From Escherichia coli (GTDB lineage: Bacteria > Pseudomonadota > Gammaproteobacteria > Enterobacterales > Enterobacteriaceae), in NCBI RefSeq assembly GCF_003334255.1, contig NZ_QOWU01000137.1: 2,272 nucleotides of DNA, one strand, 5' to 3'. Positions 1 through 2,272 of this stretch are shown here, one piece after another; positions within the stretch are counted from its first letter, which is position 1; every line of letters begins with the position of its first letter. The notes beneath the pieces are model-generated. The model was given only the letters and a program-made list of their open reading frames with translations. It was not told the origin of the DNA and searched no databases. The translations under genes were made by a program, and so were the position numbers.

Positions 1-4
1 GAGT

Positions 5-51
5 AGAGTAAGAGGCAGGGCGTAGTCGGACTATTTCCCTGCCTCTCCTCC
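5..51 (-). ncRNA. Group II intron domain VI with bulged branch-point adenosine (minus-strand A at window position 9)
   Basis: Minus strand GGAGAGGCAGGG ... CCCUGCCUCUUACUCU forms a long stem of 10 contiguous Watson-Crick pairs plus extensions. A single unpaired A on the 3' strand sits 7-8 nt from the window edge, matching the usual branch point to 3' splice site distance. Confidence 0.7.
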
Positions 52-53
52 CC

Positions 54-87
54 GAACCGGACGTGCACCTTTCAGCGCATCCGGCTC
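54..87 (-). ncRNA. Group II intron domain V (catalytic core hairpin)
   Basis: Minus strand reads GAGCCGGAUGCGCUGAAAGGUGCACGUCCGGUUC, 34 nt. It matches the domain V consensus: AGC catalytic triad near the 5' end, 9-bp lower stem including a G-U pair, 2-nt AC bulge on the 3' strand, 4-bp upper stem, and a UGAAAG loop. Differences from the common consensus keep base pairing intact. Confidence 0.92.
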
Positions 88-92
88 TCCAT

Positions 93-1616
93 TTAAATGC
101 TGGCGAACGCCATTGCCACTTCTGTAAAGCGCGATGTATACGTGTTTCTGGTCTCCGTCCTCAGATAGGGATTACCTTCGGGTAGCCGCCAGCGGAACAG
201 CTTCTTGCCTTGCCCCACCAACCGGTACAGTATTTCGCCGCTGAGCTTGCCGTGATTGGTTTTACCAAATAAAACCCACGTTTTGCTCTGACCCGGTTTC
301 GGTGATTTACACCACCACCTCATCAGGGAAGCGATACCTGTACGGTATTTGCGGGCCAGCCAGTGAGCCAGCTTCCAGAACACGACACGGTCGATATAAC
401 TGAAGACTTTGGCCTTAAAATCAACGAACTGATAGAACATGGCCCAGCCTTTCAGTTTTCGGTTGAGTTGTTCAGCCATATCGACTTTGCTTTCACTGTA
501 GTTGCCTGATAACAGTGCTGTCAGCGATGCGGCGAAGTTTCTGGCTTTCTCCTGCGGGATCGTTGAGACCACTCGCATCTCGCCATAACGACTGCGTTTG
601 CGAATGATCCTGTGCCCCAGAAAGATAAAGCCGTCATTAACATGGGTGATTTTAGTCTTATCCATGTTCAGCCTGAGTTTCAGACTGCCTTCGAGCACAC
701 CCCGACACTCCTCCCTGATGGCTTCCGCCTGTGCTTTGGTGCCTTTGACGATGAGGACAAAATCATCGGCATAGCGGCAGTACGCCACCGCGGGTTTCCA
801 CTGCCAGTTTTCTCTGACCGCCGTACTTCGGCCCCGTTGGATACTGTTATTCCAGTACCACCGATCTTTTCTGGCTTTCCCGCTCAGGTAGCGCTCATGC
901 AGGTATTGATCGAACTCATTCAGCATGATGTTCGATAATAGCGGCGATATAACACCGCCCTGTGGCACACCTTCACTGGCCGCCCGAAAGAGACCGACAT
1001 CGATATGTCCCGCCTTGATGGTTTTCCACAGCAGAGTCATGAAACGTGCGTCACTGATCCTGCGGCGTACAGCCTTCATCAGCAGTCGATGATGTACGGT
1101 GTCGAAGTAACTGGACAGGTCGCCTTCAATCACCCAGCGTCCCCGGGTTTCACCACAGTCTGTGAGCTGTAATTTCACCGTGCGGATCGCGTGGTGGACA
1201 CTGCGCTCAGGCCGGAAGCCATATGAGAGCGTATGAAAATCACTCTCCCATATCGGCTCCATCGCCATCAGCATGGCCCGCTGAACAATACGATCCCGCA
1301 ACGCGGGGATACCCAGTGGTCGCAGTTTGCCGTTGCTTTTAGGGATGTAAACCCGTCTGGCGGGCAAGGGCTGGTAGTGGCCTGAGAGTAATTCATCCCT
1401 GAGGATTTGCAGCTCAACAGCCAGTCTGGCCTGTAGCATTGTTTTGTTCACGCCATCAACGCCGGGGGTATGGGCCCCCTTTGATGAAAGCGTGATCCGC
1501 GCCGCTTCAGCCAGCCATTCTGGTTGTGTTATCAGACGCAGCAGCCGTTGAATCCGTAGGGACGGATCGGTGGCTGCCCATGTGGCAAGCTTGCGTTGCA
1601 TTTCGCTGATTATCAA
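93..1616 (-). CDS. Group II intron-encoded protein: reverse transcriptase / maturase, apparently without an endonuclease domain
   Basis: 507-aa ORF with the group II RT motifs in order: TPGVDGV (aa 50-56), PLGIP (100-104), SYGFRPERS (131-139), DLSSYFDTV (166-174), PQGGVISPLLSNIML (218-232), YADD (282-285, codons at 762..773), KITHVNDGFIFLG (322-334). A maturase/thumb-like region follows with GWAMFYQF (390-397). Stop codon TAA at 93..95. The C-terminal 70 aa contain one Cys and no HNH/zinc-finger pattern. The track start at 1616 is a TTG codon; the first ATG is 5 codons downstream (1599..1601). Confidence 0.93.
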   Translation of the reverse strand: MIISEMQRKLATWAATDPSLRIQRLLRLITQPEWLAEAARITLSSKGAHTPGVDGVNKTMLQARLAVELQILRDELLSGHYQPLPARRVYIPKSNGKLRPLGIPALRDRIVQRAMLMAMEPIWESDFHTLSYGFRPERSVHHAIRTVKLQLTDCGETRGRWVIEGDLSSYFDTVHHRLLMKAVRRRISDARFMTLLWKTIKAGHIDVGLFRAASEGVPQGGVISPLLSNIMLNEFDQYLHERYLSGKARKDRWYWNNSIQRGRSTAVRENWQWKPAVAYCRYADDFVLIVKGTKAQAEAIREECRGVLEGSLKLRLNMDKTKITHVNDGFIFLGHRIIRKRSRYGEMRVVSTIPQEKARNFAASLTALLSGNYSESKVDMAEQLNRKLKGWAMFYQFVDFKAKVFSYIDRVVFWKLAHWLARKYRTGIASLMRWWCKSPKPGQSKTWVLFGKTNHGKLSGEILYRLVGQGKKLFRWRLPEGNPYLRTETRNTYTSRFTEVAMAFASI

Positions 1617-2272
1617 AGGTCTTCACCTCGTTAGGTCAGTTAATTCACGTCGCAAACACATTCAAACTGCTTCCCTTCGCCATGTAATGGGCTTTCCCCA
1701 TCGCGGACTACTACGGAAGCTCCGCCAGCCAGCGCGTCATCGGAGCCATGCCCCCTTAACATCCGTCGCTGACCTTCCCCGGTTTACCTGCCTGGACTCA
1801 GGCATACTGAGGAGGCTGCCCGTCGCACTCTTTATCCTTGCTTGCCGCAAGTTGGCAGAAGTCAGCAACGCAAGTGTGATAGACGCTGCTGCCCCGGTGT
1901 TTCGCATACATGTCAAAACACCTTCGACCGGCAGTGCTTACGTATCACTGCCAGTTCCTCCTGCACGGCCTGTCAGATCACGTAGGCCGTGGTGACGTTT
2001 TCAACCCACAGAGGCGGATTAACGGGTTCATGTTCTTCAGCCTTTCAGTACTTAACCTTGAGGATCATCTCGGCTTAGTGATCTCGCCTCAATCCCCGTT
2101 GTCAGCGGGTTACATCACCCTGCGGGCATGCCGCAGGTCACTGCCGCTCAGGTTCTCCACCGTCACACCCGGTGGGATTGTTGGGTTTCTCATCGTGAGT
2201 TACCGGTTCAATATTCCAGACAGACTCGCGGTTCATTTAAGCATCCATGCCCGCCCTGAACTCCGGGCACAC
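1617..2272 (-). ncRNA. Group II intron ribozyme 5' portion (domains I-III and the 5' part of domain IV)
   Basis: About 650 nt of non-coding, hairpin-rich sequence between the GUGUG 5' end and the IEP start. This is the usual size and position for domains I-III. Individual domains and exon-binding sites were not mapped because no exon sequence is available. Confidence 0.75.
1624..1629 (-). promoter_or_regulatory. Putative Shine-Dalgarno sequence (GAGGUG) for the IEP
   Basis: Minus strand reads CGAGGTGAAGACCT-TTG: GAGGTG lies 7 nt upstream of the TTG at 1616 and about 22 nt upstream of the first in-frame ATG. The spacing favours the TTG start. Confidence 0.45.

What the first reader, a model, noticed from the sequence alone, without database searches (positions are those of the whole stretch)
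1..12. 3' splice boundary and host target unresolved; window edges coincide with intron edges
The bulged branch A is at minus-strand position 9, which puts the 3' splice site at window position 1-3. The 5' end GUGUG is exactly at 2272. With essentially no exon sequence, IBS1/IBS2/IBS3 and the interrupted host gene cannot be identified. The most interesting biology, namely what the intron inserted into (gene, IS element, terminator, or defence or virulence locus), lies just outside the window.
Basis: inference. Interest (0 to 1): 0.45.

Follow-up and report, generated by a model that had tools for sequence, protein, structure and literature searches.

The report
Known E. coli intron E.c.I4 in IS3 transposases
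The window is a complete copy of the well-known E. coli/Shigella group II intron E.c.I4, whose 5' end is exactly at the window edge and whose 3' end is two bases inside it, and whose "host gene" is the transposase gene of IS3-family insertion sequences, so the open question is answered and the answer is ordinary.

Summary
On the minus strand the window carries a full group II intron: GUGUG at 2272, D5/D6 at window 3-89 (Rfam E=6e-12), and one bulged A at window 9. Flanks from identical copies, plus real uninterrupted "empty" sites, fix the boundaries. The intron is 2270 nt (window 3..2272). Window 1-2 (minus-strand TC) are the first two bases of the 3' exon. The element is E.c.I4 (= S.f.I1): 5 mismatches in 2270 nt to a published E.c.I4 copy, and matches in 2669 of 5426 complete E. 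coli genomes. Its target is already published. It inserts in the sense strand of IS3-family transposase orfB, right after the codons for the catalytic W-x-x-D-x-T-Y motif (GAY NTN ACN TAY R | TC). The main hosts here are IS629/IS1203-like elements and ISEc52. EBS1 (CGUAAG, window 1937-1942) pairs 6/6 with the IS629-type IBS1 and covaries with the target in relatives. An EBS2 (ACGUC, window 1994-1998) and δ (A, window 1943) are inferred. No defence or virulence gene is the target. Minor extras: relatives sit at the equivalent D-E-T-Y site of IS6-family transposases, and one copy lies in a DUF3800 gene. Novelty: already known. Interest: low.

The parts
1..2 (-). First two nucleotides (TC on the minus strand) of the 3' exon. 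They are not intron. T (window 2) is position +1, the proposed δ' partner.
   Evidence: Removing 2270 nt restores the transposase frame and removing 2272 nt breaks it. Real empty sites read ...TTACG|TCAGC and ...CTATA|TCTGG with a single TC. Relatives end in CTCTAC followed by TG or TA.
3..2272 (-). Complete group II intron E.c.I4 (= S.f.I1), 2270 nt
   Evidence: 100% identical copies in E. coli, Shigella and Klebsiella. 5 mismatches in 2270 nt to the published E.c.I4-2b copy, NC_009801 4848623-4850893. Boundaries fixed by empty sites.
2268..2272 (-). 5' splice-site consensus GUGUG (intron nt 1-5)
   Evidence: Sequence. All 133 junctions start here. IS matches stop exactly at IS position 741, which is the junction.
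1993..2005 (-). 13-nt terminal loop GUUGAAAACGUCA (intron 268-280). Proposed EBS2 is ACGUC at window 1994-1998 (intron 275-279), pairing with target positions -13..-9 (G A Y N T).
   Evidence: Hairpin 264-284 in the alifold model. Pairs with the invariant G-13, A-12, Y-11 and T-9 in 35/35 sites. C276U in two relatives matches A at -10 in their targets. Inferred, not proven.
1937..1942 (-). EBS1 CGUAAG (intron 331-336) in the loop of hairpin 319-343
   Evidence: 6/6 Watson-Crick with IBS1 CUUACG of the IS629-type target. Covaries in relatives: GGUAUG with CAUACC (6/6), GAUAUG with CCUAUC (5/6).
1943..1943 (-). Proposed δ (A330, immediately 5' of EBS1), pairing with T at +1 of the 3' exon
   Evidence: +1 is T in all 44 full-length copies and in all relatives. 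IEP class A goes with IIA ribozymes, which use δ-δ' (PMC4424553 Table 1; PMC3552965). Consistent, but no covariation is available.
93..1601 (-). Intron-encoded protein (ltrA), 502 aa: reverse transcriptase plus maturase (X), no endonuclease domain
   Evidence: Pfam RVT_1 2.2e-34 and GIIM 1.3e-10, with nothing else even at E<=10. TIGR04416 at 341 bits against a cutoff of 300. RefSeq annotates the same span as ltrA.
54..87 (-). Domain V (catalytic hairpin)
   Evidence: Rfam RF00029 and D5-only models; fold.
5..51 (-). Domain VI with the bulged branch-point A at window 9 (intron nt 2264, seventh from the 3' end)
   Evidence: Fold, z=-5.5; Rfam alignment.

Best explanation
The window is a full-length copy of the bacterial group II intron E.c.I4, an IEP class A, endonuclease-less retroelement. 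It lies on the minus strand and occupies window 3..2272, with two nucleotides of 3' exon at window 1-2. It is a site-specific retroelement that homes into the sense strand of IS3-family transposase genes (orfB). The insertion point is one nucleotide after the Tyr codon of the W-x-x-D-x-T-Y motif that contains the first catalytic Asp. The target reads GAY NTN ACN TAY R | T C. Recognition is by RNA-DNA base pairing. EBS1 (CGUAAG) reads positions -6..-1. A second loop (ACGUC, proposed EBS2) reads -13..-9. The A just 5' of EBS1 (δ) reads T+1. The paired positions fall mostly on the codon positions that protein conservation keeps fixed, which explains how one intron can enter many diverged IS3 members. 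Because the intron is in sense orientation, splicing from the transposase transcript can restore the orfB message, so the IS is a harmless landing site. Shown here: the anatomy, the exact boundaries, the target, the EBS1-IBS1 pairing with covariation, and the absence of an En domain. Inferred: the EBS2 and δ assignments, actual splicing, and priming of reverse transcription by replication-fork DNA, as in other En-less introns.
For: The group II hallmarks are present: GUGUG, D5/D6 and the bulged A, and an RT+X protein. Identity to E.c.I4 rests on 5 mismatches in 2270 nt to a published copy with the same 5' end. Identical copies are frequent in E. coli, Shigella and Klebsiella. The boundaries are fixed because the in-silico join after deleting 2270 nt matches natural uninterrupted IS copies at 100% over 500 nt (pCE10A) and 99.5% over 420 nt (ISEc52). 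The frame is restored only with 2270 nt, and 43 of 43 joined junctions are open. For the target, there are 133 junctions and 35 unique 30-nt flanks. All 35 read D-x-x-Y, 32 are D-x-T-Y without a stop, and nearly all are preceded by a W codon. G-13, A-12, T-4 and A-3 are invariant; T-9, A-7 and C-6 are each 34 of 35; -11 is always Y; -2 is Y in 34 of 35. EBS1 and IBS1 pair and covary in relatives. The literature says E.c.I4 inserts at specific positions of IS629, IS911, ISEc16 and ISEc31 transposases (PMC3522654) and assigns its ORF to class A without a D/En region (PMC3552965).
Against: The genomic origin of this particular window is unknown, so its own flanks are inferred from identical copies. 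In my sample those lie mainly in IS629/IS1203-like elements, plus one mixed-flank copy. The EBS2 assignment is not unique: GAUGU at intron 157-161 scores equally on the target set. The commonest target also has a U·C mismatch at -10. The ISEc52 target pairs at only 4 of 6 positions with EBS1, so the protein may contribute to recognition. No experimental evidence of splicing or mobility was available to me.
Confidence: 0.93

Rival explanations
1. The window edges coincide exactly with the intron edges: the intron is 2272 nt and the terminal TC is intronic.
For: All 44 full-length E.c.I4 copies sampled are followed by TC, so TC looks like part of the repeat. Published BLAST-based coordinates give 2271 nt.
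Against: Empty sites contain that TC (TTACG-TC-AGC and CTATA-TC-TGG). Deleting 2272 nt frameshifts orfB. Relatives end in CTCTAC and are followed by TG or TA. Rfam D6 ends at window 3.
Confidence: 0.02
2. The intron interrupts a host defence, virulence or housekeeping gene, so the interesting biology lies in the disrupted locus.
For: Copies are found next to BREX brxL in EC958 and next to ospG on the Shigella virulence plasmid. One copy is in a DUF3800 gene, and one is in a TonB-like lipoprotein ORF in another frame.
Against: In those loci the interrupted sequence is itself an IS3-family transposase. Of the 35 unique flanks, 31 are IS3-type W-x-x-D-x-T-Y sites; the other four are the IS6-family site and the three non-transposase sites. 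The neighbourhood reflects where ISs accumulate.
Confidence: 0.04
3. The 3' exon is recognised IIB-style by a remote EBS3 in the domain I coordination loop, and/or EBS2 is the GAUGU loop at intron 157-161 rather than ACGUC at 275-279.
For: GAUGU (157-161, the loop of hairpin 153-166) pairs with -12..-8 about as well as ACGUC pairs with -13..-9. D5 also hits plastid IIB D5 models weakly.
Against: The 157-161 hairpin lies 5' of the Id arm in the alifold model and shows no covariation. C276U in two relatives matches A-10 in their targets. Class A IEPs are paired with IIA ribozymes in the literature (PMC4424553).
Confidence: 0.3

Closest known systems
E.c.I4 / S.f.I1 (Escherichia coli / Shigella flexneri group II intron, IEP class A)
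   Same: Same 5' end, 99.8% nucleotide identity to the published E.c.I4-2b copy, the same ltrA product, and the same IS3-family targets (PMC3522654).
   Different: Nothing substantive. The supplement of that paper gives 2271-nt coordinates, whereas the empty-site test gives 2270 nt. ISEc52 is not among the four hosts named in PMC3522654, and neither is an IS6-family host, which I saw only for a 91%-identical relative.
RmInt1 (Sinorhizobium meliloti, class D, En-less, homes into ISRm2011-2 transposase)
   Same: Both are endonuclease-less bacterial group II introns whose natural homing site is inside an IS transposase gene, recognised by EBS/IBS pairing.
   Different: The IEP class and ribozyme type differ (IIB with EBS3 for RmInt1, against a literature-assigned IIA with δ here). 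The IS family differs. Mobility of E.c.I4 was not tested here.
Ll.LtrB (Lactococcus lactis, ML class, IIA)
   Same: Overall IIA-style exon recognition: EBS1, EBS2 and a δ adjacent to EBS1, plus an RT/maturase in domain IV.
   Different: LtrA has D and En domains and cleaves the bottom strand. The protein here ends about 80 aa after the X domain and has no HNH match.

Membership tests
Group II intron (RF00029 and general definition) | 5' GUGYG, and a 3' end with domain V and domain VI carrying a bulged branch-point A 7-8 nt from the 3' splice site | tested here: met
   GUGUG at window 2272-2268. RF00029 at 64.9 bits against gathering score 40. Bulged A at window 9, seventh nt from the end.
Group II intron (mobile, ORF-containing) | Domain IV ORF encoding reverse transcriptase plus maturase (X) | tested here: met
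   RVT_1 and GIIM. TIGR04416 at 341 bits, above the cutoff of 300.
Group II intron (mobile) | Precise insertion relative to an otherwise intact empty site, with EBS1-IBS1 complementarity at the junction | tested here: met
   Empty sites L004 and L005. EBS1 CGUAAG against IBS1 CUUACG, with covariation in L136 and L137.
Group II intron | Self-splicing, lariat formation and retrohoming activity | not testable with these tools
   Needs RT-PCR, branch mapping and mobility assays.
E.c.I4 / S.f.I1 | Near-identity to the reference element | tested here: met
   5 mismatches in 2270 nt to NC_009801 4848623-4850893, which is listed as E.c.I4-2b in the supplement of PMC3522654.
E.c.I4 / S.f.I1 | Homing site at a specific position of IS3-like transposases (IS629, IS911, ISEc16, ISEc31) | tested here: met
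   Of the 35 unique flanks, 31 are IS3-type W-x-x-D-x-T-Y sites. The main host is about 95% identical to elements annotated IS1203 family, and the second is ISEc52.
IEP class A / IIA ribozyme | Phylogenetic placement of the IEP in class A, and IIA-type domain I with δ-δ' | not tested
   Taken from PMC3552965 (class A) and PMC4424553 Table 1 (A pairs with IIA). Here I only see that A330 next to EBS1 can pair with the invariant T+1.
En-minus group II introns | No HNH endonuclease domain at the IEP C-terminus | tested here: met
   Pfam finds only RVT_1 and GIIM even at E<=10. The protein ends 81 aa after GIIM.

The most novel reading that the evidence does not exclude
The E.c.I4 lineage reads the nucleotide skeleton GAY-NTN-ACN-TAY that encodes the catalytic D-x-T-Y motif. 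This lets it cross between DDE transposase families: from IS3 to IS6-family elements at the equivalent D-E-T-Y site, seen in one metagenome contig and in the finished plasmid pmk2 of Klebsiella sp. PL-2018. It also allows occasional entry into unrelated genes that happen to carry the skeleton, such as a DUF3800 gene with D-F-P-Y. I did not find cross-family homing of this kind described in the papers I could read.
Probability: 0.45. Interest if true: 0.3.

Novelty: already known. Interest (0 to 1): 0.1.

Why it matters
It matters little beyond housekeeping. The finding's open questions are closed: the exact 3' boundary, the IBS/EBS pairings and the interrupted gene. The answers match published knowledge of E.c.I4. 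Three points have practical value. Annotators should place the intron's 3' end two bases inside this window, at 2270 nt rather than 2271 or 2272. The 'partial/frameshifted IS3 transposase' pseudogenes that flank ltrA in thousands of RefSeq records are single ISs split by this intron. The neighbourhood of such copies (BREX, virulence plasmids) should not be read as the intron's target.

Tried and rejected
1. EBS2 = AGAUCA at intron 189-194, which gives 7 bp with the IS629 flank. Rejected because the alifold model places it in a conserved 9-bp long-range helix with 289-298.

2. EBS2 = UGAAAAC (270-276) pairing with -13..-7. Rejected because it puts an A·A mismatch on the invariant A-12.

3. The genome-contig scan with the 5' end gave only 5 loci, too few for a site survey. 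The viral and metagenome scans supplied the sites.

4. I tried to read Dai & Zimmerly 2002 (NAR 30:1091), but it is not held. Han 2004 (J Microbiol 42:56) is known to me only from its citation in PMC3522654.

5. NC_011745 (strain ED1a) is not in the collection.

6. The bioRxiv paper on a 'specialized' E. coli intron concerns a different intron, at groEL.

7. The weak CRISPR-DR8 hit at window 2086-2119 (+), E=0.87, is dismissed as chance; it lies inside domain I. The antisense ORFs 612-938(+) and 1570-1995(+) are treated as spurious.

8. The DUF3800::intron junction was not found in finished E. coli genomes. It therefore rests on one metagenome contig.

Full report
**Observation.** Read on the minus strand, the window starts with GTGTGCCCGG at position 2272 and ends ...CCCTGCCTCTTACTCTAC-TC at position 1. 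The Rfam group II model (D5+D6) matches window 3..89 on the minus strand over its full length at 64.9 bits, E=6.1e-12. Folding window 3-91(-) gives D5 at window 54-87 and D6 at window 5-51. D6 has one bulged A at window 9, followed by a 4-bp helix and two unpaired nucleotides, AC (window 4-3). The z-score is -5.5 and no shuffle of 200 folds as well. Between them lies a 502-aa ORF at window 93-1601(-). It carries RVT_1 and the group II maturase domain and no other Pfam match. It scores above the curated cutoff of TIGR04416, 341 bits against 300.

**Identity.** The 2272 bases match at 100% in many finished records. A match is found in 2669 of 5426 complete E. coli genomes, and there are matches on 2186 plasmid records from Escherichia, Klebsiella, Salmonella, Enterobacter, Shigella and others. 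The supplement of PMC3522654 lists E.c.I4 copies by genome coordinates. The copy at NC_009801 4848623-4850893 starts at the same GTGTG and differs from the window at 5 of 2270 positions. PMC3552965 treats E.c.I4 and S.f.I1 as 99%-identical class A ORFs that lack a recognisable D/En region. The window is therefore E.c.I4.

**Boundaries.** In strain EC958 and on a Shigella flexneri plasmid the copy is flanked by ...GCTGATTTTACTTACG | GTGTG...CTCTAC TC AGCACATGG. On a Klebsiella plasmid and in strain E24377A it is flanked by ...GTGATGTGACCTATA | GTGTG...CTCTAC TC TGGACGG. Deleting 2270 nt gives one open frame...LWVADFTYVSTWQG..., whereas deleting 2272 nt shifts the frame. The 2270-deleted join is not just a construct. 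It matches natural uninterrupted IS copies at 100% over 500 nt in a single piece (for example pCE10A) and at 99.5% over 420 nt (ISEc52), and those empty sites read TTACGTCAGC and CTATATCTGG. No alternative placement of the insertion fits these sequences. The intron is therefore window 3..2272, and window 2-1 (TC) is exon. Three further results agree. Relatives at 85-94% identity all end in CTCTAC and are followed by TG or TA. IS matches in interrupted copies stop at IS position 741, exactly at the junction. All 43 testable joined junctions are open. The published coordinates imply 2271 nt. I attribute that to BLAST-defined ends.

**Target.** Scans of genome, viral and metagenome collections with the first 28 nt of the intron gave 129 further loci, which together with the loci fetched earlier made 135. 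From these I extracted 133 junctions and 35 distinct 30-nt 5' flanks. In the intron's sense orientation every flank ends in codons for D-x-x-Y, and 32 of the 35 read D-x-T-Y without a stop. Almost all read W-x-x-D-(F/I/V)-T-Y. G-13, A-12, T-4 and A-3 are invariant. T-9, A-7 and C-6 are each present in 34 of 35. Position -11 is always a pyrimidine, and -2 is one in 34 of 35. The TGG Trp codon at -22..-20 is nearly invariant. The 3' exon starts with TC in 44 of 44 full-length copies. The commonest host is about 95% identical to elements annotated 'IS1203 family'. From my own knowledge, not tested here, IS1203 belongs to the IS629 group. The second commonest host is ISEc52. [quoted passage not shown] The BREX gene next to the EC958 copy and ospG next to the Shigella copy are neighbours of the IS, not targets of the intron.

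**Exon recognition: EBS1.** CGUAAG at intron 331-336 (window 1937-1942) sits in the loop of hairpin 319-343. It is perfectly complementary to the last six exon bases of the IS629-type site, CUUACG. The pairing covaries in relatives. The Salmonella diarizonae intron has GGUAUG and sits after CAUACC (6/6). The Yersinia pestis pMT intron has GAUAUG and sits after CCUAUC (5/6). I regard EBS1 and the 5' splice site as established at the sequence level.

**Exon recognition: EBS2.** A consensus fold of five relatives buries one attractive candidate, AGAUCA at 189-194, in a 9-bp helix. It exposes a 13-nt terminal loop at 268-280. In that loop ACGUC (275-279, window 1994-1998) pairs with G-13, A-12, Y-11 (G pairs with both C and U), N-10 and T-9, so it covers the target positions that stay fixed in this stretch. 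In the two relatives where C276 is U, the target has A at -10. An equal-scoring alternative, GAUGU at 157-161, exists, so this assignment is inferred at roughly 0.6.

**Exon recognition: the 3' exon.** IEP class A goes with IIA ribozymes (PMC4424553 Table 1), which recognise the 3' exon through δ-δ'. The nucleotide 5' of EBS1 is A in the window and in all relatives, and +1 is always T. This is consistent, but there is no covariation to test it. The two commonest sites also trade off against each other. The IS629 type has a perfect EBS1 pairing but a U·C mismatch at -10. ISEc52 pairs at all five EBS2 positions (plus U-14/A280) but at only 4 of 6 positions with EBS1.

**Mechanism.** The following is shown here: a complete ribozyme and RT/maturase, precise sense-strand insertion, and base-pairing potential at the junction. 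The rest is inferred from established group II biology. The spliced lariat-IEP particle reverse-splices into the DNA site defined by IBS2, IBS1 and δ'. Because the IEP has no endonuclease domain, cDNA synthesis is presumably primed by nascent DNA at a replication fork, as in other En-less introns. Sense orientation allows the intron to be spliced from the orfAB transcript, so the host IS is not necessarily inactivated.

**Side observations.** A 91%-identical relative lies at the equivalent position...RRWRMDETY|, of an IS6-family transposase. This is seen in a metagenome contig and in the finished plasmid pmk2 of Klebsiella sp. PL-2018, where the intron is itself split by a further insertion of about 1.39 kb. 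One E.c.I4 5' end lies in a DUF3800-domain gene after ...SYDFPY, which has the same nucleotide skeleton. That junction was not found in finished E. coli genomes. These cases suggest that the RNA reads nucleotides rather than a gene family. Mixed pairs of 5' and 3' exon types also occur. They could reflect recombination between copies or assembly chimeras, and I did not follow them up.

**Verdict.** The unresolved target is an IS3-family transposase gene at its D-x-T-Y codons. The element and its target preference are already in the literature. Interest is low.

Noticed in passing
L141:2890-5342 (Klebsiella sp. PL-2018 plasmid pmk2); L028: A 91%-identical relative of the intron sits after ...RRWRMDETY in an IS6-family transposase, the equivalent of the IS3 D-x-T-Y site. 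In pmk2 the intron is itself interrupted after nt 19 by an insertion of about 1.39 kb, with intron nt 11-19 repeated. That makes it an IS inside an intron inside an IS.
   Followed up: partly
L053:10920-11124: An E.c.I4 5' end is joined to a DUF3800-domain gene after ...FLKSYDFPY (GACTTCCCATACA, which fits the nucleotide consensus). The uninterrupted gene is on E. coli plasmids, but this junction was not found in finished E. coli genomes.
   Followed up: partly
metagenome/viral loci (tabulated): Several full-length copies have a 5' exon of one IS type and a 3' exon of another, for example IS629-type 5' with ISEc52-type 3'. This would be expected from homologous recombination between intron copies in different ISs, or from assembly chimeras.
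   Followed up: no
H1 NZ_CP024243.1 1650880-1654500; H2 NZ_CP042892.1 47911-51246: Intron copies at 100% identity are split into two pieces, with an IS4-like IS421 or an IS5-family transposase annotated inside. These are further examples of nested mobile elements.
   Followed up: no
L007 (Kluyvera georgiana contig, 2271 nt): A whole assembly contig is just the intron plus one base, the typical signature of a collapsed multi-copy repeat. Coordinates of 2271 nt are also used for E.c.I4 in the supplement of PMC3522654, whereas empty sites give 2270 nt.
   Followed up: partly
window 2086-2119 (+): Weak match to the Rfam CRISPR-DR8 repeat (19.1 bits, E=0.87, far below the gathering score), lying inside intron domain I. 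I treat it as chance.
   Followed up: yes
window 612-938 (+) and 1570-1995 (+): Two ORFs of 108 and 141 aa lie antisense to the intron. There is no evidence that they are genes, and they were not examined further.
   Followed up: no
L001:2541-2657: RefSeq annotates an 'AL1L pseudoknot' (the programmed-frameshift signal) in the 5' part of the interrupted IS3-family element, about 340 nt upstream of the intron. The intron therefore lies in orfB, downstream of the frameshift site.
   Followed up: no
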